Part shown: one piece after another, positions 8,737 to 46,852 of the stretch
Position numbering within the stretch: position 1 is the stretch's first letter
Layout of the letters: each line of letters starts with the position of its first letter
The notes under the pieces: model-generated
Told to the model about the DNA's origin: nothing
The model's input: the letters and a program-made list of their open reading frames with translations, nothing else
Databases searched by the model: none
UHGV virus genome: UHGV-0124967
Source: a virus
Reading direction: 5' to 3' (one strand)
DNA: 52,734 nucleotides
Program-made: the position numbers and the translations under genes

Positions 8737-8901
8737 ATGACTGAAAAGCTATGGAAGTTGACGGTATTCATGACAGACGGTAGGGAAAAGGTTATCGCCC
8801 TGTATGACGACGAGGGTGAAGCATTGGTTGACGCGCTTTTACTTGCTGAGGATGACCGCCTTTTGGGATACCAGATCGAACCTGTCAAATATGAGGGTTA
8901 G
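8737..8901 (+). CDS. hypothetical small acidic protein, 54 aa (moron)
   Basis: ATG 8737 with GGAGG 6 nt upstream; inside longer track ORF 8617..8901. Confidence 0.5.
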   Translation: MTEKLWKLTVFMTDGREKVIALYDDEGEALVDALLLAEDDRLLGYQIEPVKYEG

Positions 8902-8905
8902 CAAA

Positions 8906-9259: not shown

Positions 9260-9268
9260 GGCGGCAAC

Positions 9269-9517
9269 ATGGGGCGGCGCAATTACGGTGATTATGTGTA
9301 CACGTTGAAACAGGCCGCCCGCCTCGTCGGTTATCATGAGCACGAATTTATTGATTTGATGATTGAGCGCGGGATACTGTACCAGGTCTGTTTAACGCTG
9401 TACCCAAAAGCGAAATACCTACAGGAAAAGTTATTCATCATCATGACAGATGAAAACCAGGTTAACCATTCATTCGTCACTGATAAGGGCGTTAATTATC
9501 TGCGTGATAACTTATAG
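9269..9517 (+). CDS. hypothetical protein, 82 aa (moron)
   Basis: ATG 9269 following previous gene; same strand and spacing. Confidence 0.5.
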   Translation: MGRRNYGDYVYTLKQAARLVGYHEHEFIDLMIERGILYQVCLTLYPKAKYLQEKLFIIMTDENQVNHSFVTDKGVNYLRDNL

Positions 9518-9644: not shown

Positions 9645-9650
9645 TAATAA

Positions 9651-9677
9651 CCCCGCTTCTCGCGGGGTCGTGTTTAT
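9651..9677 (+). terminator. rho-independent terminator ending the plus-strand moron operon
   Basis: CCCCGC-TTCTC-GCGGGG hairpin followed by T-rich TCGTGTTTAT. Confidence 0.6.
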
Positions 9678-9874
9678 ACGCCATCAAGCAAAAACAAAAC
9701 TTCCTTCCCTTCTCTGGATCTGCACCCCACATACCCATCACCAACGTCGTGAAGATACCATATATCGCCATTATCAGCTTTTACAGCAAGGTCGTTGATC
9801 TCATAGTCATCAAACAATGTGAAAGCGTCAGTTTTGTCCACTACACAAGTCCCGTACATATTAACCACCATCAT
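9674..9874 (-). CDS. hypothetical protein, 66 aa, translationally coupled to M
   Basis: ATG at 9874..9872 overlaps the M stop (ATGA). Confidence 0.4.
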   Translation of the reverse strand: MMVVNMYGTCVVDKTDAFTLFDDYEINDLAVKADNGDIWYLHDVGDGYVGCRSREGKEVLFLLDGV

Positions 9875-10224
9875 CTAACAACTTGCTCAAACGTTGCGTT
9901 AAGCGTGTATACATGACCGTCTTTCGTCATACTCCAGCTACGGCAAACAAAAAGCCTTTGCACGCCATCCATCGACGGCGACCAGTAAAAAGCCTCGACA
10001 GCGCCGCGCGCCATCAAGAATGCTTCAGCCTGGATCGCCACGTTTCCACCATCACCGCATCCTGCGCTACTGCCTTTAAAGACCAGGGTGTAGCTGTCAA
10101 GCAATGTGTTGATCCCTTTCGCCTGGCGCTGTTCATAACCATCACCAAGTTTGACAACGGACACATTCGGTTCCCTGGTTACGCTGTAGCTTCGTTGCGG
10201 CGTCCATTTGAACACTTCCGGCAT
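9871..10224 (-). CDS. M: minor tail protein M
   Basis: 117 aa between tape measure and L; G-rich RBS. Confidence 0.75.
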   Translation of the reverse strand: MPEVFKWTPQRSYSVTREPNVSVVKLGDGYEQRQAKGINTLLDSYTLVFKGSSAGCGDGGNVAIQAEAFLMARGAVEAFYWSPSMDGVQRLFVCRSWSMTKDGHVYTLNATFEQVVR

Positions 10225-10285
10225 AAAACCCCCCCATAAGTTACATTTTGTATATATCTTTACGCGCTTCTACGCGAAAAATAAG

Positions 10286-10302
10286 ATCATTGTCACAATG
10301 AT
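10286..10302. promoter_or_regulatory. perfect palindrome ATCATTG-TCA-CAATGAT (possible operator)
   Basis: 7-3-7 inverted repeat between divergent M and plus-strand moron genes. Confidence 0.3.
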
Positions 10303-10324
10303 TATAGCTAGTTTACAAAATGGC

Positions 10325-10353
10325 TTCACATAGTACGCAACAAGATGTATATA
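10325..10353 (+). promoter_or_regulatory. putative promoter for plus-strand moron pair
   Basis: TTCACA (10325-10330), 17 bp, TG-n-TATATA (10346-10353); about 40 bp upstream of ATG 10394. Confidence 0.4.
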
Positions 10354-10393
10354 GAAAGCAAGAAGAAAGTAGTACCAACGAAGGAGGCCCAAA

Positions 10394-10549
10394 ATGAAAC
10401 GCTATGTAGTAGTAATGCTAAATAACGCATTCGAACAAGTGGAAATAGCAATCGTTAAGGGTTTCGACGACGCATTCAAATACGGTCAATTCATGATGAA
10501 TGCGAAAGAAGATGAATACCGGGACTTCTTCCTGAAGGCACTTAACTAA
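10394..10549 (+). CDS. hypothetical small protein, 51 aa (moron)
   Basis: ATG 10394 with AAGGAGG 6 nt upstream; below ORF-track cutoff. Confidence 0.45.
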   Translation: MKRYVVVMLNNAFEQVEIAIVKGFDDAFKYGQFMMNAKEDEYRDFFLKALN

Positions 10550-10566
10550 GGATGATGGGGTGAGTT

Positions 10567-10821
10567 ATGAAACTGGTAGCGATTGACAGAAATCTGAAAG
10601 CACAGAAAAACGCACATGACCGGATCATCAAGAAAGGTAAGGAATTACTTAAAGCCTTTCTGAGAAAAGAAGTTTACCCCAAAAAGTTACGCGACGGTTA
10701 CGGATACAAAATGGATATCAATCTTGATTGGAGGCTGTTTAGCGAAGATTTGAAGGTTTGGTTAATTGTTGAGCACCATGCCTATAACAAGTTATGTGGC
10801 GTGAAAGGCACTCATAAGTGA
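10567..10821 (+). CDS. hypothetical basic protein, 84 aa (moron)
   Basis: Track ORF; same strand directly downstream of 10394 gene. Confidence 0.5.
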   Translation: MKLVAIDRNLKAQKNAHDRIIKKGKELLKAFLRKEVYPKKLRDGYGYKMDINLDWRLFSEDLKVWLIVEHHAYNKLCGVKGTHK

Positions 10822-10874
10822 GTCGAGATATTCGAAAGGGGATATATCGCGCGGAATGGTCGTTTATAAATACG

Positions 10875-10913
10875 AAAAATAACCCCGGCATTGCACCGGG
10901 GTTTAGTTTATTT
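10875..10913. terminator. bidirectional rho-independent terminator
   Basis: CCCCGG-CATTGCA-CCGGGG hairpin (10883-10901) with A-run before and T-rich after; overlaps tape-measure stop. Confidence 0.65.
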
Positions 10914-13250
10914 GCGGCGAGGTTGCAACATTCCGCCTGGTCTTTGAGATTCCCTTGTTATCATTTTCATGGCTACACGTTCCATTGTTAATTCAAGTCT
11001 GCGGCTGTCTTCGTCGCTGAATCCGTTCGTGGTCTGAATGCTGATACTGACAGGCATACTAATACCGCCACCGCCGCCAATATCACGGCCCGGAATAACT
11101 CTGCCGTTCTCGCCAGGAATCATATATTGATTCCCGTTAGATGTCTGGAATAGCTCCGGCCTGTTGTGTTCCCCTACACGGTACATATTGCCACCAATGA
11201 CGCTACCACCATTAAAGCGACCGCCGCCAAAAATTGACGTAGCCAGCGACATGATCGCAGTGAGTGCCGCAGAACCAGCCGCCGCCCATGCGCCGCCAGT
11301 TGACGCCGCTGTTGCCGCCGCCGCCGGGGCCGCCGCCGCAGCAATCTGGCCTTGCGCCGCTACCGCGCCCGCCGTGGTACTTGCCTGAGTCGCTTTGCTT
11401 TGCGTTTCCATCATGATCTGATCTGCTATCCAGTTTGCAGCTATGTCTGAAAGCCTGTTACCGATATTCCCGAGGATATTGCTGCCTAAGTTAGCAAAAA
11501 CATCACTCAATGATTGAGTACCATTTAACAGGCCAACAAGTGCATTGCTCATACCACCTTTAAGGCCATTAACGCAATCACCGATAAGGCTGTTTGTGTC
11601 GCTTTGCGCCTGCCATTGCTCCCACTTCAGATCGCGGATCTGTTGCTCATAGGCTAACAGTTCCTGTTTCTGTTGCGCTTCCGTCACGCCCAGGTCGATA
11701 AGCATTTGCTTACGGACGGCCCATTCATTTTGAACCTGCTGAATAGGGTCTACTTCGCCCTTTAGCTGATCCATCGGGCTTACTATTTGCTCCCATTTGT
11801 CGCGCAATTCCTCTACCGGAATTTGTGCTAATTCTTCCTTTAGTTCCTTACCTATCCCTTTTTGCGCGGCGCGGTACTCAAGGAGAGTGATTTTACCCTG
11901 GGCGAATGCAGCATCAATGGCCTTGCCGCTCTCTAACGCTTTGCGCATAGCGGCGGCGTCTTTGTTGTACTGGTCAGAAACGCTTATACCTTTATCGCCA
12001 AGACGATCAGCTTCAGATTTCTTCTCTTTTTTCTGTTTTTTCGGTTTGTCTACTGGCTTGCCGGATCCGGTAATCGCTCCGTCATTGGCGGCATTCTGTT
12101 CATTTTTCCTTGCTTCTTCTGTAGCCTGGATTGCTGCGGTCAGATCATCCTGTAGTTGCATGACCTTGCCAACGGTCTTACCGTATTTCTTCTCGTAGTT
12201 GCTGTTATATTCGTCGGTTTGCTCTCCTACGACCTCCTTCATCCATTTGTAGGCATCCATTAGTGCCTTGATTGGCGTCACCATTGCGATGATCTTCTCG
12301 GCTACCTCGCCAGCCTTGATTCTGACATCTTCAAACATGTCGATGAATTCGCCACCAGCCGTCTTCAGGGTGTTAAAGCAGGTTTTAGCGAAATCAGCGC
12401 CTTCACTTAAAGCCTTAACACCTTTCGTTACAAGATCGATACCAGCAACAACCGTATCGGATACACCGAAAAGATCATCCAATTGCTCAACAAGTCCCAT
12501 AACCTCGACTTTAAGCTCATTCAGGGCCATGCCGGATGTGCGCGGCAACTGCGCAAACTTCTCGTTTGTTTCCTGCGTAGCCGCCTGGATTGCGTTAACC
12601 ATCCTTTCTGCCGTGATCTTACCGTCCAGCATTTCGGCGCGGAATTGGCCCATTGATAACCCCATCTGGCGTGCCATTGTCTGTACGATGGTCGGGGTGT
12701 TTTCTAACAGGCTGTTGAATTCTTCAGCACGCAACACGCCACCGTCGATAGACTGACGGAATTGACGCATTGAGTTTGACATCTGCTCCGCTGACGCGCC
12801 GCCCAACGCCCCCATTTTCTGAATCGTACCTACCAGGTTAAGCAATTGCCCTTCAGTGGCGGACGTGTTCTTCAGTGAGATAGCTAAGCCTTGCCACAGA
12901 TCCCCGGTATCCTTCATGCTTTGGCCTGTTTCTTTTGATATTGCTTTCAGGCCATCAAAAACCCGTCCGGCGGACTCCGCATCGCCCGTAAGCATTTTGA
13001 TTTTTACGCGAAGCATTTTTGCTTGCTCCGCCATATCCATAAATTGACGCACGGCCTCCGCAGCAATTAGCAAATGGATAACCCTGGTCAGTGCCTTGAT
13101 GGATGTTTTCAGGGTGTTTACCTGGCGGTCAGCCTGTTTTGCGCCGCGCTCTATACGCCCAAAGGCCTGGTCTGCCTGTCGTTGTGCAACGAGAAGTTGA
13201 CCAGTTTTCGCATCAACTTCGTAATAAATTGTACCTACACTGGTAGCCAT
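10908..13250 (-). CDS. H: tail tape measure protein
   Basis: 780 aa; alpha-helical Ala/Gln-rich body, Gly-rich C-terminus; between chaperone and M. Confidence 0.85.
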   Translation of the reverse strand: MATSVGTIYYEVDAKTGQLLVAQRQADQAFGRIERGAKQADRQVNTLKTSIKALTRVIHLLIAAEAVRQFMDMAEQAKMLRVKIKMLTGDAESAGRVFDGLKAISKETGQSMKDTGDLWQGLAISLKNTSATEGQLLNLVGTIQKMGALGGASAEQMSNSMRQFRQSIDGGVLRAEEFNSLLENTPTIVQTMARQMGLSMGQFRAEMLDGKITAERMVNAIQAATQETNEKFAQLPRTSGMALNELKVEVMGLVEQLDDLFGVSDTVVAGIDLVTKGVKALSEGADFAKTCFNTLKTAGGEFIDMFEDVRIKAGEVAEKIIAMVTPIKALMDAYKWMKEVVGEQTDEYNSNYEKKYGKTVGKVMQLQDDLTAAIQATEEARKNEQNAANDGAITGSGKPVDKPKKQKKEKKSEADRLGDKGISVSDQYNKDAAAMRKALESGKAIDAAFAQGKITLLEYRAAQKGIGKELKEELAQIPVEELRDKWEQIVSPMDQLKGEVDPIQQVQNEWAVRKQMLIDLGVTEAQQKQELLAYEQQIRDLKWEQWQAQSDTNSLIGDCVNGLKGGMSNALVGLLNGTQSLSDVFANLGSNILGNIGNRLSDIAANWIADQIMMETQSKATQASTTAGAVAAQGQIAAAAAPAAAATAASTGGAWAAAGSAALTAIMSLATSIFGGGRFNGGSVIGGNMYRVGEHNRPELFQTSNGNQYMIPGENGRVIPGRDIGGGGGISMPVSISIQTTNGFSDEDSRRLELTMERVAMKMITRESQRPGGMLQPRRK

Positions 13251-13303
13251 GATTTAACCTCATGCAAAAATGTGATCTGTGTATCTATTTTATACAAAAT
13301 GGC

Positions 13304-13332
13304 TTTACTTCAACGACTACATTTTGTATAAA
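13304..13332 (+). promoter_or_regulatory. putative promoter for lipoprotein moron
   Basis: TTTACT (13304-13309), 17 bp, TG-n-TATAAA (13324-13332); partner inverted copy at 13291-13302 faces tape measure. Confidence 0.45.
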
Positions 13333-13377
13333 GAAGCCAAAGGGAATGGTCAGTAAATCAAGTTAGCGAGGTGGGTT

Positions 13378-14037
13378 ATGAAACGGTTAGCAAAAGTGGC
13401 AATGATTGCGGCGGTATTGGGTCTGGTTGGTTGCAATGAGGATAATGAAAAAGCGCCTATAGTGACCACTCAAGAACAACAAGCATTAGCAGAGAAAAAT
13501 GCTAAATGGCTTGCAGAACAACAAGCAAAACAAGCCGCATATGAGGCACAGTTAGCAAAAGAAAAAGCTGGTAAACAGTGGCTTGTGGTCGAAAGAAAAG
13601 ATGATATGCAGGACACAAAAAACGTGTTCCTTTTCGTGAAAGCAGAACATTTCAGCGGAAGTCTTGATGCTTTCCCTACACTGAAAGCACGGGATGAAAA
13701 CAAACCTGTATTAACAATCGCTTGCCAGGGTAATAAAACAAAAATGTTCGTAGCATGGTCAAACCATGTAACTGACGCTGGGGACACTACTTATATTAAC
13801 TACCGGATCGGCGATCACAAAGCTGTAGCTACTGAATGGAGTCGGTCAACTAACTATAAAGCTCTTGGATTATGGAACGGCAAAAAAGCCATTCCAATGA
13901 TTAAAAAACTGGTTAACGAAAAACAATTTATCATTGAAGTAGTGCCGGAAGCTGGCGACATTGAGAAAGCAGTGTTTAACATTGATGGTCTTTATAACCA
14001 CATCGACAAAGTGAAAAACGCTTGCAACTGGAATTAA
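13378..14037 (+). CDS. lipoprotein, 219 aa (tail-region moron), function unknown
   Basis: ATG 13378 with GAGGTGG RBS; signal peptide with lipobox LVGC; coiled-coil-like segment; AT-rich compared with neighbours. Confidence 0.7.
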   Translation: MKRLAKVAMIAAVLGLVGCNEDNEKAPIVTTQEQQALAEKNAKWLAEQQAKQAAYEAQLAKEKAGKQWLVVERKDDMQDTKNVFLFVKAEHFSGSLDAFPTLKARDENKPVLTIACQGNKTKMFVAWSNHVTDAGDTTYINYRIGDHKAVATEWSRSTNYKALGLWNGKKAIPMIKKLVNEKQFIIEVVPEAGDIEKAVFNIDGLYNHIDKVKNACNWN

Positions 14038-14046
14038 GGGTGAAAC

Positions 14047-14367
14047 ATGAAACGCGATGAATGGATGAGAAAATGGGAACATAAACAAGTAGCATATAAT
14101 CGCAAGATGAACCGCGAATTTGACTTCGGTGTCGCAGAGCGTGATTGTGGGTATAAAGGAAATCTAAATGGTGCATATGTTCAACATGTTGGCGATAAAC
14201 AGTATTATTACATTGTCAACTTCAACCATGTATTGCACGCAGATCTGGTTGTTATTGATGGGAAAACAAAAATAGTAGCGAATAAACGCATTAATAAGAA
14301 CGCAGCAATCAATATATTAACAGTGATTCGCACCCAGATGAATGTGCTTTACGAAAAAATAGCATAA
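14047..14367 (+). CDS. hypothetical protein, 106 aa, co-transcribed with lipoprotein
   Basis: ATG 14047, 7 nt after lipoprotein stop, AAGGGTGA RBS. Confidence 0.55.
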   Translation: MKRDEWMRKWEHKQVAYNRKMNREFDFGVAERDCGYKGNLNGAYVQHVGDKQYYYIVNFNHVLHADLVVIDGKTKIVANKRINKNAAINILTVIRTQMNVLYEKIA

Positions 14368-14380
14368 GCGAACTTAACAA

Positions 14381-14409
14381 AAACGCCCGGATCTACCGGG
14401 CTTTTTCTT
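14381..14409. terminator. bidirectional rho-independent terminator
   Basis: GCCCGG-ATCTA-CCGGGC followed by T5CTT; the minus-strand chaperone stop sits in the loop. Confidence 0.65.
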
Positions 14410-15070
14410 GCTCGCGATTTTTCATTCTTTTTAGTATCTCCATAGCACCATTCATTCCATCGTCATAAGCCTTTTTATCCAGCAATACATTTGGGCGTTT
14501 TTGTTTGTTTCTTGCTTCTGGCGGCGTTTTAGCGCGTACAGCGGCCCTATATCCGGTCATTGTCATATTCCATGCTTCTGATTCTGATAACCCCAGGTGA
14601 GCTACGGCAGAATAAACGAATTCCAGCACGTTAAAAGTCGGCTTATATTCCCCTTCCCGGATCTCTCCGGCGTCTTCTTCTGGCCCGTCACCGATTAAAC
14701 CGTGGTACATGCAATGTTGTGCCAGCGTGATAACGTCACTGGTCGGCATCAGTCCGGGTTTTAGTCGTAACTTGGCGGAAGAAGTTAACCTACATTCACC
14801 CAATAACGGGGCTATTTCGTCGTCTGAGCAACATTTCAGGATGCGCATTGACGTTTGTACTATCTCACCATAACACCGCGCCATAATGCGATTGCGGAGG
14901 TCTGGATCTGCAGGCAATCGTGATGGGTATTTGCTGCCGTGGATAAGTGCGAAATATTCGACAAGCTCACTATCGTTGCCGATTTTAGCCATCGCAGCAA
15001 AGCAAGGATTAAACTCATAGCGCTTACCGTTCACCACGGCAGCAAATTGTCCTGTACGAACATGGATCAT
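14393..15070 (-). CDS. putative tail assembly chaperone (lambda G/GT position)
   Basis: 225 aa from first ATG (15070, AAGGTGA RBS); track ORF starts at a GTG at 15079. Called by position between major tail and tape measure only. Confidence 0.45.
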   Translation of the reverse strand: MIHVRTGQFAAVVNGKRYEFNPCFAAMAKIGNDSELVEYFALIHGSKYPSRLPADPDLRNRIMARCYGEIVQTSMRILKCCSDDEIAPLLGECRLTSSAKLRLKPGLMPTSDVITLAQHCMYHGLIGDGPEEDAGEIREGEYKPTFNVLEFVYSAVAHLGLSESEAWNMTMTGYRAAVRAKTPPEARNKQKRPNVLLDKKAYDDGMNGAMEILKRMKNREQEKAR

Positions 15071-15082
15071 AGTATTCACCTT

Positions 15083-15107
15083 AAAAGAAAAGGGGCCAAA
15101 TGGCCCC
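15083..15107 (-). terminator. hairpin terminator/attenuator after major tail gene
   Basis: GGGGCC-AAAT-GGCCCC followed on minus strand by T-run. Confidence 0.6.
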
Positions 15108-15125
15108 GATTGTTAATATTGGCTG

Positions 15126-15602
15126 TTATGCTGGCGGAACGTCGCCTACCGTTACCTTGCCAGCGCTTTCGCACTCAATAGACCAGGTGGAAACATCATC
15201 ATGCGGATCTTCTTCTTTAAAGGAAGCGCAAAGGAATGGGCCTTCAGTTACGTCTACAGGAGAAACGATCTTCAGCCATACATAAGGTTGTGATCCGGTG
15301 GTTTCATCTGGCGTAATTACGTGGCGTTTCAGCGCTTTCTGATTATGGATTTCTTCAGTGCGGGACACACCGTCGCCGGAGAAAGAAACGGATTTGTAAG
15401 TAACCATTGATTCTTTCGTGTAATCGGCTGATTTATCGGCGGTGGCGTCAGCGGTTTCCCATTCAACGGAAAGTGTTTTACCACGCATCATGCCTAACGC
15501 TTTGTACGCTCCATCTTCCGGCTTCGCATTTGGACAAGCGATAGCGAAGAATACAGCAACGTCACGGCCTGTAAACGTGCCTTTTTCGCAAGTCTGAGAC
15601 AT
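15126..15602 (-). CDS. major tail protein
   Basis: 158 aa, AGAGGT RBS, followed by attenuator hairpin; position after neck genes. Confidence 0.65.
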   Translation of the reverse strand: MSQTCEKGTFTGRDVAVFFAIACPNAKPEDGAYKALGMMRGKTLSVEWETADATADKSADYTKESMVTYKSVSFSGDGVSRTEEIHNQKALKRHVITPDETTGSQPYVWLKIVSPVDVTEGPFLCASFKEEDPHDDVSTWSIECESAGKVTVGDVPPA

Positions 15603-15615
15603 GTTAATTTACCTC

Positions 15616-16002
15616 TTATCTTGATATGATGGTTTGAAAGGCTACGGTGAAAATAAAGCGCCCTTCTCTTGTCTGTATTGCAGGAATAGCGCCAACTGGC
15701 TTCATGTGTGTAATTTTATCAGTTTTATATTCTGTTAACATACTTTGACGGATGGTATCGGCAAGGTCTTCCACCTCACTGATATTTGCATCATTACGCG
15801 CTGAAATAACCAGGATGCGGAAATAATCACGGGTTATTGCTTCCTCACCAGCCGCGCCGCCGTTTTGCTGGATCACGATGTATCTGTCATTATTCGAATT
15901 ACTTCGCTCATTCCAGAAACGGGCCTGCAAAATATAGCCTTCATCGTATCCGTGGGATTGAATCCAATCCCTTATTTCGTCGTAAACTTCGCTGCGTTTC
16001 AT
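15616..16002 (-). CDS. putative tail terminator / tail completion protein
   Basis: 128 aa immediately upstream of major tail gene. Confidence 0.5.
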   Translation of the reverse strand: MKRSEVYDEIRDWIQSHGYDEGYILQARFWNERSNSNNDRYIVIQQNGGAAGEEAITRDYFRILVISARNDANISEVEDLADTIRQSMLTEYKTDKITHMKPVGAIPAIQTREGRFIFTVAFQTIISR

Positions 16003-16463
16003 ACTTTGTAACCTTCTACAATTTCTTTATAAATATCATCGGCGTGGTTAGGATCTTCGAATGCCTTACGCAAGAATCCAGGCTCCGCATTTGGATCCCA
16101 ATAATTACCCTTTCCAGTACCACCACCAAAACTAATTACCTGTTTCGGTCCGAAATCTGAAAGGTTATTCGTTTTGCCGAAATCTTCGCGCGGCTGGCCT
16201 TTTAATGTACCCGGCATATTGTGCACCCATTCAGCGTAGCGGGCCGTATATCCCAGGCGTAATTGCATACCGTCCGCCGTGTTCCCTATGTACTGGAACT
16301 GACTGTTAATTAAGAAGCCCGTATCGACTGGCGTCATATTAGCCGCGAAGCCACCAGCCAGCATACCGACGCGCCATAAAACTTCGTGCGTCTTTTTATC
16401 GGTGATTTCCTTTAGTTCCTGCTTTAATCTCTCACGGACGCGTTTAACCCCCTTGATAGGCAT
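15999..16463 (-). CDS. neck protein, HK97 gp10-like
   Basis: 154 aa; ATGA overlap with downstream gene; position in neck module. Confidence 0.55.
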   Translation of the reverse strand: MPIKGVKRVRERLKQELKEITDKKTHEVLWRVGMLAGGFAANMTPVDTGFLINSQFQYIGNTADGMQLRLGYTARYAEWVHNMPGTLKGQPREDFGKTNNLSDFGPKQVISFGGGTGKGNYWDPNAEPGFLRKAFEDPNHADDIYKEIVEGYKV

Positions 16464-16465
16464 GA

Positions 16466-16834
16466 TTAACCCCCTGTCACGATCTTATAATCCGGCGTGT
16501 CGTTAAACATGCTCATATCCCATTCAACGATCCCGGTAATAACGTTGGCCCCAGCCACCAGCGGGTCGGAAATATTAGTGGTGTCGCCAGTGGCAATCAT
16601 CCAGCCGTTTTTCGGGCGCTGCACTGGCTGCATATTATGAAGCAGTTCGGTAAATACGGTTATTGTATTGCTAACCTCATTACCGTTTGTGTCTGTTGCA
16701 GTGCCGTCGGTGCGCTCCCATGCGCAGTTAATCAGGTATGGTGCGCCGTATACGTCGGCGTTTGTCCAGTCGTCATGCGTTACGGGGTAGATGGTGGCTA
16801 ATGCCTTGTAACTGAATCGCGCAATCTTACTCAT
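16466..16834 (-). CDS. putative head closure / head-tail joining protein
   Basis: 122 aa in neck module. Confidence 0.5.
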   Translation of the reverse strand: MSKIARFSYKALATIYPVTHDDWTNADVYGAPYLINCAWERTDGTATDTNGNEVSNTITVFTELLHNMQPVQRPKNGWMIATGDTTNISDPLVAGANVITGIVEWDMSMFNDTPDYKIVTGG

Positions 16835-17012
16835 AGCCGTAACTCCAGCTAATGACCTTTGGATGAGTTTTCGCCACGCGCGGGCAAAGAATTACCCATA
16901 AGCCAGCATCATTGAGGTAGGCCGCCACCTGGCGTCCGCTATCCGTTTTAACCCACACGCGGGTAAATGGTTTCGGCAATACTGGATTTGGTAATGTCAG
17001 GTCGTTCCACAT
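16827..17012 (-). CDS. small hypothetical protein, 61 aa
   Basis: First ATG at 17012 with AGGAGG 8 nt upstream; track ORF starts at GTG 17018. Confidence 0.4.
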   Translation of the reverse strand: MWNDLTLPNPVLPKPFTRVWVKTDSGRQVAAYLNDAGLWVILCPRVAKTHPKVISWSYGYE

Positions 17013-17014
17013 TG

Positions 17015-17401
17015 TCACATCCTCCTGCTCTTACCAATCCACAGCCCGGCGTGCGCGGTGTTTTCTGGATCTGGTGGAATTAGTTCGGCTGTACAATGGT
17101 GTTTGTCCAGTGAGTAAAGCAACGAATAGGCCGCCTTCCATCGCTTATTAAAATCGACATAGCGGTAAGACTGGCTTGCACCGTTCGGACCAGTCTGCGA
17201 GGAAACGTATTTATCAGCCTGGCTGAGTCCTAACAGGCCAATGAGATAAAGCTGAATCAATGTTGCAGTGGAGGACGGATAATTGGCATCAAGGCATTCA
17301 TTAACGCTATTTGCCTGCTCCACCAGCAAAGATAAAACCACGTCTGGTATTTCAATCCCCTGGCTTTCGAGATATTCCCGCGCCTGTTGTGTGGTAACCA
17401 T
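17015..17401 (-). CDS. putative head-tail adaptor (gp6-like)
   Basis: ATG 17401 with GGAGAAAAC RBS (track ORF extends to 17437); first gene after capsid terminator. Confidence 0.5.
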   Translation of the reverse strand: MVTTQQAREYLESQGIEIPDVVLSLLVEQANSVNECLDANYPSSTATLIQLYLIGLLGLSQADKYVSSQTGPNGASQSYRYVDFNKRWKAAYSLLYSLDKHHCTAELIPPDPENTAHAGLWIGKSRRM

Positions 17402-17419
17402 TTTGTTTTCTCCACATAC

Positions 17420-17447
17420 AAAAAAAATCCCCGGCATTGCGCCGGGG
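17420..17447 (-). terminator. hairpin terminator/attenuator after major capsid gene
   Basis: CCCCGGC-ATTGC-GCCGGGG followed on minus strand by T8; near-identical stem to 10883-10901. Confidence 0.65.
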
Positions 17448-17466
17448 AGCTACAGAAACATATCAA

Positions 17467-18531
17467 TCAGATATTGCTGCCGTAGACCACTCCTGAACGA
17501 CCTTTCATGTCACGGGTGATTTGCAGACCCTCAGCGGACATGATGCGGAAGTTGTAGTTATCAGTCGGCATCATGCGCGGTAACGGTACAACACCAGTAG
17601 TCATACCAATCAGCGGGGTAATTACGCTACGGCTGCGCTGATAAGCAATGAACTCGTTGCCGGACAATGCATAGCTCTGGCGAATCTCACCAACCGGAGC
17701 GAACGGCATAATGACGCTCAGCACGCTACCAACTACAGCACCATTGACGATGTGCGGACGGGCCAGGTTAGCCATGATCTCAGGCGATACCCACATGACG
17801 TCGTATTTAGCTACGAAGTTGGCGCGAGCCAGCTTGCCGAACTCACCAACGGTGAAGAAGTCAATGATCTTGTCGAAACCCACAGTAGGCAGGTCGACTT
17901 TTGCGACGGTTTTTAGTTTAAGCTGCTGGGTGCTTTTGTGGTTTTTAATACCCATAGCTTTATGACCATCAACCACGATGCGATCGTTACCATTCAGGTA
18001 GAACTGGACGCGTGCTTTGTTGAATTTTTTCAGTTTCAGGCGCTGACTATCCAGGGCAAGGTCGATGCCTACAGTACTCAAGCCCTGAGCGAGACGCCAG
18101 TTAACACCGTAACCAGCCGCGAACATCGGGATCGGGTCGCCATCGCTATCGTATTCGGTGTGATCAAAGCCGTGTGGCGCTTGACCATCCATAGACATCA
18201 CAACTTCATCATTGATGTCACCGGATACGTTGTACATTTTCAGCGTTTTACCGACTGGCAGTACGGTTTGCACACCCATCAGGTCGTTTACGATCTCAAT
18301 ACCGATTTCTTCGGTGTTCAGTTCGATAATCTGGTTATCGATTTCTTTCCAGAATTCTTTTGCGAAGCCGCCGACGGCGTTACAGGCCAACATTTCAGCG
18401 GTCATATTTGCCTGATTTGCTGCAATCATGGCGTTGTGCTGCGCGTTGAAGATATTGCGTTGCGCCCACAGTTCTTTCCAATGGCCCTGCATACGGGCGT
18501 TGGTGGCAAGGTTTTCTTTTGTAAAGTACAT
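17467..18531 (-). CDS. major capsid protein
   Basis: 354 aa between decoration and neck genes, followed by attenuator. Confidence 0.7.
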   Translation of the reverse strand: MYFTKENLATNARMQGHWKELWAQRNIFNAQHNAMIAANQANMTAEMLACNAVGGFAKEFWKEIDNQIIELNTEEIGIEIVNDLMGVQTVLPVGKTLKMYNVSGDINDEVVMSMDGQAPHGFDHTEYDSDGDPIPMFAAGYGVNWRLAQGLSTVGIDLALDSQRLKLKKFNKARVQFYLNGNDRIVVDGHKAMGIKNHKSTQQLKLKTVAKVDLPTVGFDKIIDFFTVGEFGKLARANFVAKYDVMWVSPEIMANLARPHIVNGAVVGSVLSVIMPFAPVGEIRQSYALSGNEFIAYQRSRSVITPLIGMTTGVVPLPRMMPTDNYNFRIMSAEGLQITRDMKGRSGVVYGSNI

Positions 18532-18548
18532 GTTTTTCCCCTTTTAAA

Positions 18549-18977
18549 TTAAGCAACGCGAACGCGGATAAAATCTTCCGCCCCCAGGGTTACGTCTTCC
18601 TGGCAGTATGCGATGATCGGATCTGGCGCTGCCTGTTCACTTGGCACAGCAAACAGTTTCACCCCGTCGGCTGCGAGAGCAATAGCTGCACCCTTAACAT
18701 AAGCGGCTGCAGGAACAAGGAGAGCAAACTCTCGGCCCTGTTCCACATAATCAGCAACAACAGTTTCATTTGCAGCGATTGCATCAGTAATGGTTTTGCC
18801 TTCGTGGAATGCCGGGTTGACGATGTACAACTGAGCTGCACCGACATCAGCACTGGTTGCTTTTGCAAACTTACCTTTGTCCAGTTTTACCAGTTCACCT
18901 GGTTTTACTGCGACCTTAGCAGTGTAGGTTTCGGTAATGGATTTACCATCAATATTTACACGACGAAAACGAGACAT
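18549..18977 (-). CDS. head decoration protein
   Basis: 142 aa, GGAGGG RBS, Ala/Val-rich, directly upstream of capsid. Confidence 0.6.
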   Translation of the reverse strand: MSRFRRVNIDGKSITETYTAKVAVKPGELVKLDKGKFAKATSADVGAAQLYIVNPAFHEGKTITDAIAANETVVADYVEQGREFALLVPAAAYVKGAAIALAADGVKLFAVPSEQAAPDPIIAYCQEDVTLGAEDFIRVRVA

Positions 18978-18991
18978 TGTATTCCCTCCAG

Positions 18992-20281
18992 TTAGAAATA
19001 AGTGTTAAAGTCAGGGACTTCGCCTTTTTTGTTTTCACTTGCTGTGTTGGCGGCTAGCGGAGTTGCTTTACCCAGGGATTTAAACATTGCCTCTAATGCT
19101 TCACCGCTTAATGCGTTAGCAACAATTTCGCCGTGAACTTTTGCTACTGCGGCGCGTTTTTCTGCTACTTCTTTATTTGCGTTTGCTGCAATTTCTTCTT
19201 TAATTGCTTTCTGGTTGGTCTGTAATTCTTCTTGGTTGGTCTGCAATTCTTTTACGCTTGCCTGTACTGGTTTTAATGCCTCTGCTACTGCATTAGCGAT
19301 ATTGGCGGCTAAGCCTTCGTTAATTTCTTTTACCAGTTCGGCGCGTTCTTCTTTTGTCAAAGGCATGGGATCGTCCTCCGATTTATTGGCCTTAATTTTT
19401 TCATTCAGGGAGAAAAGATTAGAAAGGTGTTCAGCGAACTGAGCAAACCATGATTTACTTTCCTCGTTGGTTGCAAGCTCGCCATTATTGATAATAATTT
19501 TATCAGCCTGTTTTTCGTAGTTGTATCTTTCCGCACGGTTTTCATTAGTGGCGATCGTCACCTCTCTATCAGTGAAGTCCACCACGTATACGTAATCAGC
19601 GTCAGGGAACATTTCCCGCGCGGCAGCGGTTAACTGTTTTTCAAGTGTGCGATAGCTATTTTCTTTCATTGCCACCGCCATTAACGGCTTCGCCTGGTCG
19701 GTATTAACCATTAAGCCTACGCCCTGTTCCGGCGAAGCGGCTGGCGGCTCATGCAGCAAGATAGCGTCATGGTCGATCGACATGATTTTCACTACATGGT
19801 CAGCACCCTGGGCTTTCATTTTTTCGGTGGCTGGCATACGCTGGCGATATACAGCGACGGACGACCAGATAGGATCTTTGCTTTCTCCTTTCTCCAGTGC
19901 TTCCAGTCGGGCTAATAATTCGCGGCCCTGGCTTGAATGGCTGGCGGTTTCCACATCCACCCATTTTTCCACATAAACACGGTTGCCGCGTAACTCAACG
20001 TTTCTGTTCCACGCACCACAAAAACCCGTGTTTAATCCTTCCGGGCTAAATGCTGAAACAAATTTACCGTCAACGGTAGGATGGCCCAGCGGGGCAAGCG
20101 TACCCTCCAGTGACTGGTAATTAGCGATAATTTCAGCTTCCGGGTAATATTCCCGGTTCATTACGATGTTAAAGGGTAACGTGTAGGACGGAACAACAAT
20201 ATGTTCCCGCCCGTTATACGTTTCCCGGCGTATGGTATTAGCGGTTAATTTGGTATTAACCTGAATTAATTCTTTACTCAC
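18992..20281 (-). CDS. putative prohead protease / scaffold protein
   Basis: Likely GTG start at 20281 with GGGAG 8 nt upstream (track ORF begins at TTG 20296); C-terminal half is coiled-coil scaffold-like with ELQTNQEELQTNQK repeat. Confidence 0.55.
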   Translation of the reverse strand: MSKELIQVNTKLTANTIRRETYNGREHIVVPSYTLPFNIVMNREYYPEAEIIANYQSLEGTLAPLGHPTVDGKFVSAFSPEGLNTGFCGAWNRNVELRGNRVYVEKWVDVETASHSSQGRELLARLEALEKGESKDPIWSSVAVYRQRMPATEKMKAQGADHVVKIMSIDHDAILLHEPPAASPEQGVGLMVNTDQAKPLMAVAMKENSYRTLEKQLTAAAREMFPDADYVYVVDFTDREVTIATNENRAERYNYEKQADKIIINNGELATNEESKSWFAQFAEHLSNLFSLNEKIKANKSEDDPMPLTKEERAELVKEINEGLAANIANAVAEALKPVQASVKELQTNQEELQTNQKAIKEEIAANANKEVAEKRAAVAKVHGEIVANALSGEALEAMFKSLGKATPLAANTASENKKGEVPDFNTYF

Positions 20282-20286
20282 GGTTT

Positions 20287-21231
20287 TTACTCCCAATCTT
20301 CGCCATATTTAGCGTGCGCAACTTTATAGTTTTCTTGCGCCCGATCTAATATTCGTTCGTTTAATATGTTACCGTCTTCGTCAACTAATACGGTAATCGT
20401 GCTACATTTGCAGTTAATTGAATTAGGGGATCTACTCCACCATTCGCGCTGCTCATCTATGGTGTATGTTTTACCGTGCCGCTGCGCGTGCGATAGCCTG
20501 GTAGTCGGTGATAATGCCGAAATGTGCATTTGCATAGTGCGCAGATTAAATTCTTCTGTCGCCGCTTCTGCCTCATCCATACGCGCTGTGCGTAACGCTG
20601 TGCATATTTCAGTTCGGGCAATACGTTTGCACCTGTATAGCGGTAACCGCGTCTCCTGATTCAATGTGCGCGCTATTTCCAGTGGATTTAAACCGCGTGC
20701 CATACCTTCGGTTAATCTTCTTGCCATATCCTTTTTGATCTGTGCGGTCAGCCCGCGCATTTCCTCAAATACACGGGTACGTACCAGGGCAAGGCGGGTG
20801 CGGTAAGTTGTGCTTGATAACACGGCAGATACATCAGGGTAGGCGCTTGAGTACGTGACAGACTGGTTAGCGAGGTTGGCATATTCCTGTGCCGTGCCGC
20901 GCTGATAGGCCACCTTCACGTAATTCTGCCAGAACCAGAAGTTTTCCGGGTCTGTTAACTCGAATATCTCATCAATCATGTCGCTTGCGTCCTCCAGCAT
21001 GTCGTGAAATTCATCCATGTAAATCTGAAAGGTGTATTTCTTATTAACAGCCAGGCTATATTGGATTCTGTCCAATATGGCGATATATGGATCGGCTACT
21101 TTTTTCAGGCAGGATTTGAAACGCTTAATAGCACCAGACCTTAACTTCCCTGTCATGGTCGGGTCTTCGGTGTTAGATGGCATTATCGCGGCTGGAGGTA
21201 TTCGCCTGATTATCTTCTTCACTTTCATCAT
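20287..21231 (-). CDS. head morphogenesis protein (Mu F / SPP1 gp7-like)
   Basis: 314 aa downstream of portal; start ambiguous (21231, or 21183 which reduces overlap with portal). Confidence 0.7.
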   Translation of the reverse strand: MMKVKKIIRRIPPAAIMPSNTEDPTMTGKLRSGAIKRFKSCLKKVADPYIAILDRIQYSLAVNKKYTFQIYMDEFHDMLEDASDMIDEIFELTDPENFWFWQNYVKVAYQRGTAQEYANLANQSVTYSSAYPDVSAVLSSTTYRTRLALVRTRVFEEMRGLTAQIKKDMARRLTEGMARGLNPLEIARTLNQETRLPLYRCKRIARTEICTALRTARMDEAEAATEEFNLRTMQMHISALSPTTRLSHAQRHGKTYTIDEQREWWSRSPNSINCKCSTITVLVDEDGNILNERILDRAQENYKVAHAKYGEDWE

Positions 21232-22543
21232 CGTTTTCCTCTTCCAGTTCTACCTCACTAGCCGGGCCATTATATCCGGCAGCTTCGCGGATCTCGTCAC
21301 CGCTGAATATTTCCTCACCAGTAGCGAGACATGCCTGATTGATTTGTGCCATTTTGTATGCCGCGTCGAGTAGCTCTGCTTTTGTCATGGCGTTAAGGTC
21401 GTCCCACAGTACAGATACGTCTACTGGCATACTGATAAGGCGGAGATCTGCCATCTTGAGGAATAGCTCCTCAAGCTCGCCTCCTATTTCCTCACGGCGG
21501 GTCATGCAGCGGTTATTGAAGTAGCGGAGGTCTTCGGTTGATGCGCGTTCGCCCTGCTGATTCCCAACCAGGATACGCGTTGGAATATCGATACCAGCGG
21601 CTGCGGTTTGCAGGTTGACGTCATAGGTAGCGGAAGGATCTGCTACGGCAGTAACCAGCGGGCTAACGGTAGCTCCCTGTAATGCCATCATCACATCATT
21701 ACCTTTATTTATATCCTCTGCCGCTTCATTGAATTTTTCGCGTAGCTCTGTAACGTCGCAACCGTATGTTGCAGCCAGAGAACGGAAATCAATTTCTTTA
21801 TCGAACGAGATAGCCAGTTGACGTGCTGCGTTTTTCAGGAATGATTCACCGCTGCCGCCTTCCACTTTCTCCAGCGAAACGAATGCGTTATAGGACGGTT
21901 CAAGGAAGGCGATGGCATCATCAGAATAGTCGCCAAAGATAAATATGCGATCGGGATGTATCTTTCTTGCTATGGCCTTACTGTTAATGCGCTCCTTGTA
22001 TTCCCACCATGTCGGCAGGCCATAGTTTTCATTATCCGGGTTTTCTTCGAAGTCCTTCGGTGTAAGAGCACCAGCCCATACAGGGGTAAATTTGGCAATG
22101 CCTACACCTTTTGTTACTGGCTGATCCCACGGCTTGTTATCCCTGACGTGAATTAACAGTCCAGCATAACGACCGATGAGGCGGCGGCGATCGCATTCAG
22201 CTATGACGCGCCAGAAACGATTATCAAATTGTTTTTTGATTTCTCTTTCCCACGATGTTTCATTTTCCGCTTTCTCGTCTTCCGTACCTTCAATCAGCGT
22301 TGGCCTGGTGCGCCAGCACGTAGTAATGATCTTCTCAATAGCACCGTGAGCGATACCACCGCGACGATACAGTTTGTATAAATCGGCATAGGTGATTTCT
22401 TCTTTGAATCCGTATTCACTCCACGCAGCATCACGTTTTGCATCAATACCCATTGAGAATGGGTTAGCAGCTGCATAGCGGGCAAAGGCCGCCTGGCGTT
22501 GAGACAAGGCAGCATTAACCGCCAATTCTAAATTGGATGGCAT
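21173..22543 (-). CDS. portal protein
   Basis: ATG 22543 with AGGAG RBS (track ORF starts 22564); acidic C-terminus; between TerL and head morphogenesis gene. Confidence 0.7.
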   Translation of the reverse strand: MPSNLELAVNAALSQRQAAFARYAAANPFSMGIDAKRDAAWSEYGFKEEITYADLYKLYRRGGIAHGAIEKIITTCWRTRPTLIEGTEDEKAENETSWEREIKKQFDNRFWRVIAECDRRRLIGRYAGLLIHVRDNKPWDQPVTKGVGIAKFTPVWAGALTPKDFEENPDNENYGLPTWWEYKERINSKAIARKIHPDRIFIFGDYSDDAIAFLEPSYNAFVSLEKVEGGSGESFLKNAARQLAISFDKEIDFRSLAATYGCDVTELREKFNEAAEDINKGNDVMMALQGATVSPLVTAVADPSATYDVNLQTAAAGIDIPTRILVGNQQGERASTEDLRYFNNRCMTRREEIGGELEELFLKMADLRLISMPVDVSVLWDDLNAMTKAELLDAAYKMAQINQACLATGEEIFSGDEIREAAGYNGPASEVELEEENDDESEEDNQANTSSRDNAI

Positions 22544-22691
22544 AATGTTTACTCCTGAATACATGTTTACGCGTTGCTACGCGAAAAATAGAAAAACTTG
22601 TGGGGGATTGTGAGACAGATTTTATGTAGCCAATTGAGAATTATTCTTGTTCATCTTCGAAAATTTTTCGAAGTTGATAATAATCAATAAC

Positions 22692-46834: not shown

Positions 46835-46852
46835 ACCGGAGGTAATGACATA

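What the first reader, a model, noticed from the sequence alone, without database searches (positions are those of the whole stretch)
10258..22590. Shared 25-bp element upstream of both the M and portal genes
TTTACGCGCTTCTACGCGAAAAATA (10258-10282) and TTTACGCGTTGCTACGCGAAAAATA (22566-22590) lie 30-60 nt upstream of two minus-strand structural genes. Each contains a TACGCG direct repeat. Conservation in two unrelated 5' regions suggests a regulatory or RNA element.
Basis: seen in the sequence. Interest (0 to 1): 0.45.

Follow-up and report, generated by a model that had tools for sequence, protein, structure and literature searches.

The report
Conserved leader stem-loop before portal, M
A 25-35 base sequence that can fold into a small hairpin sits just upstream of the portal gene and the tail gene M in every sampled phage of the mEp021 (mEpimmI) group of E. 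coli phages; it is under strong selection and probably controls expression of these two late genes, but how it works is not yet shown.

Summary
Two near-identical 25-mers, extending to 35 nt at 86% identity, lie at 10259-10283 and 22566-22590. None is expected by chance and the window holds no third copy.

On the gene-sense (minus) strand the element reads TATTTTTCGCGTAG[nnn]CGCGTAAA. It ends 34 nt before the ATG of tail gene M and 22 nt before the ATG of the portal gene.

The window is a temperate mEp021/mEpimmI-type coliphage. The element is present at both positions in:
- all 7 GenBank relatives;
- 49 of 49 portal loci and 30 of 30 M loci in IMG/VR, found through the proteins and not the motif;
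- 22 of 22 metagenome loci.

More distant phages with homologous portal or M genes (ES18-like) lack it.

Outside three loop bases the element is 10-50 times less variable than neighbouring third-codon or spacer positions.

The variants favour a sense-strand RNA stem-loop in the Q-antiterminated late mRNA leader over a double-stranded DNA protein site: two G.U-compatible arm changes, loop substitutions, and a 1-nt loop deletion. There are no compensatory double changes and no identified binding partner.

It is not a sigma-70 promoter, terminator, canonical nut site or Rfam family. I rate it a real, undescribed, group-specific cis element of modest interest.

The parts
10259..10283 (-). Element copy 1 (M leader). 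Sense strand: TATTTTTCGCGTAGAAGCGCGTAAA. The similarity to copy 2 continues to 10249.
   Evidence: (D10)
22566..22590 (-). Element copy 2 (portal leader). Sense strand: TATTTTTCGCGTAGCAACGCGTAAA. The similarity to copy 1 continues to 22556.
   Evidence: (D10)
9871..10224 (-). Lambda M-type minor tail protein gene (117 aa), with a G-run Shine-Dalgarno at 10235-10229.
   Evidence: PF05939, E 6e-29
21173..22543 (-). Portal gene (456 aa from the ATG at 22543), with Shine-Dalgarno AGGAG at 22556-22552. An in-frame upstream ATG at 22564 lies just after the element.
   Evidence: PF06381
22692..24206 (-). Large terminase gene. Its stop codon is followed by the 127-nt spacer that holds copy 2. The spacer is 78 nt in most relatives, which carry a different TerL 3' end.
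10301..10306 (-). Perfect TATAAT 17 nt upstream of copy 1, conserved in all 40 distinct M-locus sequences. It is a possible -10 of a promoter (P_M) that would place the element at about +11 to +35 of the transcript. The -35 is weak and the simple scan did not call it.
10311..10353 (+). Divergent plus-strand promoter region for the antisense toxin-antitoxin insert: GTTTACAAAATGG motif (10311-10323), then TTCACA (10325-10330), 17 nt, TATATA (10348-10353). It has the same layout as pR of this phage.
10394..10821 (+). Antisense insert between the tape-measure gene and M: a 51-aa ORF plus a ParE-like toxin (10567-10821). It uncouples M from the tape-measure gene.
10881..10903 (-). Intrinsic terminator directly after the tape-measure gene (10908-13250).
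   Evidence: (D13)
9649..9874 (-). orf66 (9674-9874, acidic, unknown function) and the terminator (9669-9649) that close the short M unit.

Best explanation
The element most likely works as RNA, as a short stem-loop in the leader of the late mRNA. The phage encodes a lambda-type Q antiterminator, and all late genes lie on the minus strand. Both copies are therefore transcribed in the sense orientation as part of the long late transcript. The M copy may also be transcribed from a conserved TATAAT 17 nt upstream. In RNA the element reads A-UUU-U-CGCG(U)-loop-(R)CGCG-U-AAA, which gives 4-5 G-C/G.U pairs plus 3 A-U pairs, preceded by a U tract and followed by an AU-rich stretch and the Shine-Dalgarno. 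It occurs at two points where the late message resumes translation after an untranslated gap: the TerL-portal spacer, and the antisense toxin-antitoxin insert before M. My inference is that it acts after transcription at these restart points. It may give the downstream cistron a defined, protected 5' structure after cleavage in the U-rich spacer, may insulate the ribosome-binding site from variable upstream RNA, or both. A protein that reads the invariant stem and the UAG of the loop may be involved. Shown: existence, two copies, strict conservation, orientation, position relative to the ribosome-binding site, and pairing potential. Inferred: RNA-level action and the stabiliser or insulator/operator role.
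For: - **Conservation.** The element is present and nearly invariant at both loci in all relatives. Non-loop columns vary 0.003 (portal) and 0.016 (M). Third-codon positions vary 0.16-0.21 and the 30 nt upstream vary 0.11-0.13.
- **Where variation falls.** Changes concentrate in three loop bases: AAG, AGG, AAA, AAT, CAA, CGA, CTA.
- **Arm changes.** The only two arm substitutions seen are C->U in L205 and C->U in L209. Each gives a G.U pair in the sense strand and would be A.C in the antisense strand.
- **Spacing.** Two contigs (L206, L207) have a 5-nt instead of 6-nt centre with intact arms. A hairpin loop tolerates this; a dimer site or helically phased direct repeat would not be expected to.
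- **Pairing.** 98.2% of cells pair in 35 distinct variants.
- **Folding.** The isolated hairpins fold at -10.0 kcal/mol (z -2.4) and -6.1 kcal/mol (z -1.5). Pair probability in +-70 nt context is 0.98 at M.
- **Orientation.** Both copies have a fixed sense orientation and lie close to the Shine-Dalgarno.
- **Read-through.** The lambda-type Q makes read-through transcription of both copies expected.
- **Not a transcription signal.** No sigma-70 promoter or terminator is called at either copy.
- **Loops are interchangeable.** Some portal copies carry the M-type loop and some M copies the portal-type loop, so loop identity is not locus-specific.
- **Tolerates separation from M.** In L112 an HNH endonuclease gene sits between the element and M, so the element does not need to abut the M ribosome-binding site.
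Against: - No pair shows a compensatory change on both sides, and shuffling controls are uninformative. With only two arm changes, both C->T transitions, the G.U argument is weak.
- Strict sequence invariance fits a sequence-specific DNA site equally well.
- In the commonest TerL allele the predicted ensemble favours pairing of the left arm with the TerL 3' end (CUGCGCGGA). Median hairpin probability there is only 0.17. Translating ribosomes may prevent that pairing.
- Whole-leader folds are no better than shuffles.
- The hairpin does not explain the invariant bases outside it: A before the U tract, and T.TAT.CA after it.
- No RNA-binding partner was identified.
- Other untranslated gaps on the late strand, before TerS, the tape-measure gene and L, lack the element.
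Confidence: 0.4

Rival explanations
1. The element is a double-stranded DNA binding site for a phage or host regulator. It could be read as an imperfect palindrome (TTTnCGCG-N6-CGCGnAAA, for a homodimer) or as a 10-bp-phased direct repeat (CGCGTAR twice, for a tandem winged-helix binder). Such a protein would repress or block transcription entering the head module and the M unit, or modulate the adjacent TATAAT at M.
For: - The sequence itself, not just the pairing, is invariant, including T-A-G after the first CGCG and T-A-A after the second. That is what a direct-repeat site predicts.
- Seven of 8 arm positions are symmetric.
- At M the element lies 17 nt downstream of a conserved TATAAT, a typical operator position.
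- The phage encodes candidate DNA binders of unknown target, for example a weak MarR-like ORF at 48317-48880.
- The predicted RNA hairpin is not robust in the common portal context.
Against: - A lineage with a 1-bp shorter centre keeps perfect arms (L206, L207). That changes half-site phasing by about 36 degrees.
- The element has a fixed orientation relative to the genes, and its conserved flanks are asymmetric.
- There are only two sites per genome. Neither lies at a recognisable promoter in the portal locus, where the upstream CACAAT is CACAAC in many genomes.
- The two arm variants are the ones that keep RNA pairing.
- No binding protein has been linked to the site.
Confidence: 0.3
2. The element is a nut-like or other reload site for an elongation or antitermination factor. 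The hairpin, as RNA or as non-template DNA, would recruit the N-like protein Gp17 or another factor at re-entry points of the late operon. RNA polymerase could then pass the terminators after the capsid, tail-tube, tape-measure and M-orf66 genes.
For: - This phage group is Nus-dependent and unusually uses three nut sites, one of them an internal reload site, nutR2 (PMC11893012).
- The window's boxB hairpins are short GC stems with U-purine-rich loops: GCCGC-UGGAAGU-GCGGC, CGC-UGAAAU-GCG and CGC-UGCGAA-GCG (I1, 51, 59). The element, CGCG-UAGAAG-CGCG, looks broadly similar, and two contigs have the loop UGGAAG.
- Strong terminators lie downstream of each copy (D13, 18, 88).
Against: - No boxA lies within 100 nt upstream of either copy.
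- The second loop base is A, where all three nut sites have G.
- The copies lie in the Q-controlled late region, and Q-modified polymerase should not need reloading.
- Match to the RfaH ops sequence, recalled from memory as GGCGGTAGnnTG, is only 5 of 12.
Confidence: 0.1
3. The element is an activator-dependent or otherwise non-canonical late promoter that restarts transcription of portal and M.
For: - It lies in front of two gene blocks that follow a gap or an antisense insert.
- It is preceded by an AT-rich tract.
- At M there is room for a -10-like hexamer (CAAAAT or CAATAT) about 10 nt downstream of the repeats.
- In L112 a homing endonuclease gene has inserted just downstream of it.
Against: - Only 22 nt separate the element from the portal ATG, and the Shine-Dalgarno starts 8 nt after it. 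Any -10 placed at a normal distance from a site centred at -41 to -55 falls on or beyond the start codon (geometry).
- The scan calls no sigma-70 promoter on the gene strand.
- The M locus already has a conserved TATAAT upstream.
- Q antitermination makes internal promoters unnecessary.
Confidence: 0.08
4. The element is a neutral relic: a short duplicated junction sequence left by recombination or insert acquisition, with no function.
For: - Both copies lie at module junctions where alleles and inserts vary: the two TerL 3' ends, and the insert block before M.
- Occasional loop exchange between the copies suggests gene conversion.
Against: - The element is 10-50 times less variable than adjacent spacer and synonymous sites in about 100 independent genomes.
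- Flanking spacer on both sides has diverged while the element has not.
Confidence: 0.05

Closest known systems
Lambda-type nut sites (boxA + boxB), including the three nut sites reported for mEp021 (PMC11893012)
   Same: A short GC-stem hairpin with a purine-rich loop, transcribed in the sense direction, sequence-conserved, and located in a Nus-dependent phage that reuses such sites internally.
   Different: No boxA; a different loop consensus (UAGNNN against UG...); located in the Q-dependent late region just upstream of ribosome-binding sites and not downstream of an early promoter.
5' or intercistronic stabiliser and processing hairpins of polycistronic mRNAs (for example the E. coli ompA 5' stem-loop, RNase E-processed filamentous-phage mRNAs, and T7 intercistronic RNase III sites). 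This rests on general knowledge; the T4 post-transcriptional review PMC3014915 appeared in a literature search and I did not read it.
   Same: A small stable hairpin flanked by AU-rich single strand, placed just upstream of a cistron inside a long phage transcript.
   Different: Much shorter than RNase III sites. No processing has been shown. Sequence is conserved as well as structure. There are only two copies, not one at every junction.
Translational operators bound by phage proteins (MS2 coat hairpin, T4 RegA sites, Mu Com site upstream of mom). From general knowledge.
   Same: A conserved hairpin or sequence within about 10-35 nt of the Shine-Dalgarno, read sequence-specifically, and able to co-regulate more than one gene.
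   Different: No binding protein is known. The hairpin does not include the Shine-Dalgarno or the AUG. In one genome a 480-nt gene sits between it and M.
Operator or 'stoperator'-type DNA sites inside transcription units (mycobacteriophage L5 repressor sites). From general knowledge.
   Same: A short conserved site in intergenic spaces of the structural operon, in one orientation relative to transcription.
   Different: Only two copies instead of dozens, and no similarity to this phage's likely operator or promoter motif (GTWTACAAAATGG). That abundant 13-mer is the closer analogue of stoperators in this genome.

Membership tests
Lambda-type nut site | A boxA (CGCTCTTTA-like) a few nucleotides upstream of the hairpin | tested here: not met
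   GCTCTTTAA with up to 1 mismatch gives no hit within 100 nt upstream of either copy. Clear boxA sequences are at 34656-34648(-), 43316-43324(+) and about 42095(-).
Lambda-type nut site | A boxB hairpin with the group's loop consensus, bound by the N-like protein | tested here: inconclusive
   The stem type is similar, but the loop is UAGAAG/UAGCAA against UGGAAGU, UGAAAU and UGCGAA at the three nut sites. Binding cannot be tested here.
Lambda-type nut site | Location downstream of an early promoter, upstream of early terminators | tested here: not met
   Both copies lie in the structural-gene region downstream of the Q gene and the lysis genes.
Intrinsic terminator | A GC-rich hairpin followed by a U run on the transcribed strand | tested here: not met
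   The T run precedes the hairpin on the gene strand and an A run follows it on the other strand. The scan calls no terminator at either copy.
Sigma-70 promoter | -35 and -10 hexamers 16-18 bp apart, with a start site upstream of the ribosome-binding site | tested here: not met
   No call on the gene strand at either copy. At portal only 8 nt separate the element from the Shine-Dalgarno.
Activator-dependent late promoters (P2 Ogr / Mu C type) | A dyad site centred about -40 to -55 upstream of a -10 hexamer, with the gene's ribosome-binding site downstream of +1 | tested here: not met
   With the dyad centre at -41.5 or -43.5, the -10 would fall at CATTAT, which overlaps the portal ATG, and +1 would fall inside the coding sequence (geometry). 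The family definition comes from general knowledge.
Any Rfam family | A covariance-model match at or near the gathering score | tested here: not met
   No hit at gathering threshold in the whole window. Only chance-level hits (E 2.4-3.7) in the two leaders, and not on the element.
Structured cis-regulatory leader hairpin (generic) | Pairing maintained across homologues | tested here: met
   98.2% of cells paired over 8 pairs in 35 distinct variants; slid controls give 22-84%.
Structured cis-regulatory leader hairpin (generic) | Compensatory covariation | tested here: inconclusive
   No pairs change on both sides. Three pairs change on one side only, all giving G.U or U-A. The set is too little diverged to decide.
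RfaH ops element | The 12-nt GGCGGTAGnnTG in the non-template strand of a leader (consensus from memory) | tested here: not met
   Best ungapped register anchored on TAG matches 5 of 12 (sequence).
Tandem direct-repeat site of winged-helix regulators (for example CpxR GTAAA-N5-GTAAA, from memory) | Two like half-sites at a fixed spacing of 10-11 bp | tested here: inconclusive
   CGCGTAG and CGCGTAA are 10 bp apart in nearly all copies, but 9 bp apart in L206 and L207 with the arms intact. Match to the CpxR box is 8-9 of 10.

The most novel reading that the evidence does not exclude
The two hairpins are dedicated loading or recognition sites for a trans-acting factor that coordinates the late operon at its re-entry points. 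One version is a boxA-less reload site for the N-like antiterminator Gp17 or another elongation factor. The other is a shared operator for an unidentified RNA-binding translational regulator that couples portal and tail-tip protein M synthesis. Either would be a new regulatory layer in a Q-type temperate phage.
Probability: 0.12. Interest if true: 0.6.

Novelty: new member of a known kind. Interest (0 to 1): 0.3.

Why it matters
mEpimmI phages are reported to be as common as lambdoid phages in a collection of Nus-dependent coliphages from human faeces (PMC11893012). Their late-gene control beyond N and Q has not been described.

This element is a sharply defined, easily mutated handle on that control. 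It marks two points where the long late message restarts after a gap, one of them created by an antisense toxin-antitoxin insert. It could show how temperate phages keep structural genes correctly expressed when inserts break up their operons.

If it binds a factor, it would add a regulator to a lambda-like circuit. If it only stabilises or insulates the mRNA, it is an ordinary but useful compact leader module.

Tried and rejected
- **Wrong spacing.** My first degenerate motif searches used 5 N instead of 4 between the TACGCG repeats, so they say nothing about the element. Corrected.
- **More copies in the window.** None found, whether weaker direct copies or inverted ones. This also rules out a complementary trans-RNA gene in the window.
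- **Species-representative genomes.** The portal protein found no relative. The motif gave 11 hits in unrelated taxa, about what chance predicts.
- **Loose motif in IMG/VR.** It also returned about 30 unrelated hits, which I treated as chance.
- **More distant phages.** ES18, S107, KK-2013 and 50 IMG/VR loci with 66-70% identical M have no element. No deep phylogenetic signal or covariation could be obtained.
- **Longer duplicated leader.** A roughly 50-nt duplicated leader reaching the ATG is suggested by eye, but the part beyond the 35-nt core is not significant on its own (p about 0.06-0.1).
- **Upstream ATG.** The ATG immediately after the element is in frame with portal, and in some M loci it opens a 7-codon upstream ORF. 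In many M loci, including this window, it is ATA, so I rejected a conserved start codon or upstream ORF.
- **Stop codon reading.** I rejected the loop TAG as an in-frame stop after TerL, because spacer indels shift the frame.
- **Plus-strand promoter.** A reading of TTTACG-17-TAAGAT is not conserved in the relatives.
- **Trans factor.** Pfam and PHROGs scans of about 50 ORFs found Q, an N-like protein, a CI-like repressor, a weak MarR-like ORF and nothing that can be tied to the element.
- **Literature.** Text searches found no description of the element.


Full report
**1. Observation.**
The two 25-mers are real. TTTACGCGTTGCTACGCGAAAAATA lies at 22566-22590. With up to three mismatches on both strands there are exactly two matches in 52.7 kb, and none in 100 dinucleotide-preserving shuffles. 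Ungapped similarity extends to 35 nt at 86% (D10).

The two TACGCG units are 10 bp apart start to start. My first degenerate searches used the wrong spacing and are void. Corrected searches find no further copies above chance.

**2. Context.**
The window is a temperate siphovirus closely related (83-92% nucleotide identity) to seven GenBank phages: mEp021, mEp010, mEp013, mEp044, mEp515, mEp554 and MagusPhagus. These belong to the Nus-dependent, non-lambdoid 'mEpimmI' group of human-gut coliphages (PMC11893012).

The late genes all lie on the minus strand. The gene downstream of copy 1 is a lambda M-type minor tail protein (9871-10224; PF05939). The gene downstream of copy 2 is the portal (21173-22543; PF06381).

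Read in the gene direction the element is TATTTTTCGCGTAG[A/C]A[G/A]CGCGTAAA. It ends 34 nt before the M ATG and 22 nt before the portal ATG. The portal Shine-Dalgarno, AGGAG, starts 8 nt after the element.

Copy 2 lies in the untranslated spacer between the large terminase and portal genes.

Copy 1 lies at the far side of an antisense insert that separates M from the tape-measure gene. The insert is a 51-aa ORF plus a ParE-like toxin at 10394-10821(+), with a terminator after the tape-measure gene at 10881-10903.

M, a 66-aa acidic ORF and a terminator (9669-9649) form a short unit, which is followed by further antisense inserts before gene L.

The phage encodes:
- a lambda-type Q antiterminator (32494-33216; PF03589; PDB 7UBM, E 9e-40);
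- an N-like protein (41713-42003);
- a CI-like repressor.

With Q present, both copies should be transcribed in the sense orientation as part of one long, terminator-resistant late transcript.

**3. Conservation.**
All seven relatives carry the element at both homologous positions. To avoid circularity I collected loci through the proteins or flanks and not through the motif:
- 49 of 49 IMG/VR loci encoding portal homologues (83-98% identity) have it 22 nt from the ATG.
- 30 of 30 loci encoding M homologues of 82-97% identity have it.
- 22 of 22 metagenome contigs anchored on the portal Shine-Dalgarno/ATG have it.

About 34 of 5,426 complete E. coli genomes carry the portal leader.

The table gives the mean fraction of non-consensus bases per column among distinct sequences.

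| Region | Portal locus (n=56) | M locus (n=40) |
|---|---|---|
| Element, non-loop positions | 0.003 | 0.016 |
| Three variable loop bases | 0.036 | 0.075 |
| 30 nt upstream of the element | 0.107 | 0.128 |
| Third-codon positions of the adjacent gene | 0.164 | 0.209 |

At M the element is a discrete conserved block. A variable 17 nt separates it from a second conserved block, GTGAAGCCATTTTGTAAACTnGnTATAAT.

Phages with more distant homologues of the same genes lack the element. These are ES18, S107 (portal 57-60%), KK-2013 and 50 IMG/VR loci (M 66-70%). In them M follows the tape-measure gene directly, or follows a terminator.

A motif scan of one genome per prokaryotic species returned only chance hits. 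The element is therefore a group-specific feature under strong purifying selection, with two copies per genome.

**4. Anatomy and the RNA-versus-DNA question.**
The core can be read in three ways:
- an RNA or DNA hairpin, UUU-U-CGCG(U)-[AGAA/AGCA]-(G/A)CGCG-U-AAA;
- an imperfect palindrome, TTTnCGCG-N6-CGCGnAAA;
- a 10-bp direct repeat, CGCGTAR twice. CGCG is self-complementary, which is why more than one reading fits.

Thirty-five distinct variants were aligned (A1). Over eight proposed pairs, 98.2% of cells pair. No pair changes on both sides, so covariation is uninformative at this divergence.

The informative variants are few, and all point the same way:
- Substitutions accumulate in the 3' half of the loop (AAG, AGG, AAA, AAT, CAA, CGA, CTA).
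- The two arm substitutions seen (L205, L209) are both C->U and give G.U pairs in the sense strand only.
- L206 and L207 have lost one loop base while keeping perfect arms. This changes the spacing of any DNA half-sites.
- M-type and portal-type loops occasionally swap between the loci.

Points that count against a simple structural reading:
- The invariant UAG in the loop and the invariant bases outside the hairpin (an A before the U tract; T.TAT.CA after it) imply sequence-specific recognition.
- Thermodynamic support is moderate. The isolated hairpins fold at -10.0 and -6.1 kcal/mol (z -2.4 and -1.5).
- In context the pair probability is 0.98 at M. At portal it is only 0.17 in the commonest TerL allele, where the TerL 3' end can pair with the left arm. 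The local hairpin does form in this window's allele.

**5. What it is not.**
- Not a sigma-70 promoter or intrinsic terminator at either copy on the gene strand. The T run precedes the hairpin instead of following it.
- Not a P2- or Mu-type activator-dependent promoter. The portal geometry would put the -10 on the start codon (sequence).
- Not a canonical nut site. Neither copy has a boxA upstream. The window's real nut sites are clear: boxA GCTCTTTAA or CGCTCATTAACAA followed by boxB hairpins at about 34656-34620(-), 43316-43352(+) and 42095-42055(-). Their loops differ from the element's.
- Not any Rfam family.
- Not described in the paper on the group, as far as text search shows.

**6. Most likely mechanism.**
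I favour a post-transcriptional leader element, at about 0.4. It would be a small stem-loop, preceded by a U tract and followed by an AU-rich ribosome-loading region. It would sit at the two places where the Q-antiterminated late message restarts translation after an untranslated or antisense stretch.

It would give the downstream cistron a defined, protected or insulated 5' structure, possibly with a bound protein. At M it would also lie at about +11 to +35 of any transcript from the conserved upstream TATAAT.

Supporting details:
- The element survives unchanged while the ancestral-looking Shine-Dalgarno position in the M leader has decayed.
- One genome tolerates an HNH endonuclease gene between the element and M.

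Rival explanations:
- a double-stranded DNA operator or roadblock site (0.3);
- a boxA-less reload site for the N-like protein or another elongation factor (0.1);
- a non-canonical promoter (0.08);
- a neutral relic (0.05).

Section 4 lists what is shown. RNA-level action and the stabiliser/insulator role are inference.

**7. Novelty and interest.**
This is an undescribed, group-specific cis element of a familiar general kind: a short conserved leader hairpin or site in a phage late operon. It is well defined and easy to test, but nothing so far shows an unusual mechanism.

Interest is 0.3. The most novel reading not excluded is a dedicated factor-loading site or shared translational operator coordinating portal and M. 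I give that about 0.12.

Noticed in passing
window 8710-8722(-), 10311-10323(-), 10702-10714(-), 13290-13302(-), 21349-21361(+), 28603-28615(+), 34673-34685(-), 34741-34753(+), 42381-42393(+), 43225-43237(+), 46824-46836(+): The 13-mer CCATTTTGTAWAC (reverse complement GTWTACAAAATGG) occurs 11 times with up to 1 mismatch, against 0.27 expected. As TACAAAATGG it abuts the -35 of pR (TATACAAAATGG-A-TTGACT-17-TATATT, followed by nutR1) and of the plus-strand insert promoters at 10313 and 13289. It sometimes occurs as inverted pairs 16 bp apart (13289/13319, 28573/28603). It is probably an operator or promoter-associated motif of this phage group, reminiscent of mycobacteriophage stoperators.
   Followed up: partly
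window ~8650(-), 13302-13285(-), 28586-28570(-): On the late strand, after each antisense insert block, the same motif is fused to a -10-like hexamer: CCATTTTG-G-TATGAT before L, CCATTTTGTATAAA before the tape-measure gene, and CCATTTTG-T-TATAAA before ORF 28258-28536. This suggests extended -10-type restart promoters inside the structural operon.
   Followed up: partly
window 34656-34620(-), 43316-43352(+), 42095-42055(-): Three nut-like sites, matching the three-nut architecture reported for mEp021. The first two share 37 nt at 78% as an inverted repeat.
   Followed up: partly
window 10394-10821(+), 13378-14367(+), 8804-9517(+): The tail operon is cut into pieces by antisense inserts: a ParE-like toxin with a small upstream ORF, a VasI-like (type VI secretion-associated) protein, and a KilAC/ANT-domain protein.
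   Followed up: partly
L112 (IMG/VR contig), about 60-540 nt downstream of its element: A 157-aa HNH endonuclease gene is inserted between the element and the M ribosome-binding site. This copy also has a unique loop, TAGAAA.
   Followed up: partly
L002 (mEp021 MH706966) portal start: The archetype mEp021 has ...AACATTATATTGCG where all other genomes have ...AACATTATGCCATCC, so the usual portal ATG is lost. Its record annotates the start at the upstream in-frame ATG that directly follows the element.
   Followed up: no
window 22591-22691; palindrome at 22655-22673: There are two alleles of the TerL 3' end and spacer. This window and some contigs have a longer spacer (127 nt against 78 nt) containing the perfect palindrome CTTCGAAAAATTTTCGAAG. 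The homology breakpoint is at AAATCTG, about 30 nt upstream of the element.
   Followed up: no
E. coli RefSeq prophages (hits H85-H96): RefSeq annotation names the portal homologue 'anti-CBASS protein Acb1 family protein'. Pfam assigns it to PF06381 Phage_portal_3 and it is a virion portal in ES18, so the name looks misleading.
   Followed up: partly
window 10870-10901 and 17416-17447: Two near-identical (88%) intrinsic terminators, CCCCGG(T/C)GCAATGCCGGGG plus a T run, follow the tape-measure gene and the major capsid gene.
   Followed up: no
window 3333-3709: Three copies of a 53-nt direct repeat (64-81% identity) spaced 216 and 108 nt apart inside the 1517-aa tail-fibre (J-like) ORF. This probably reflects repeated protein domains.
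   Followed up: no
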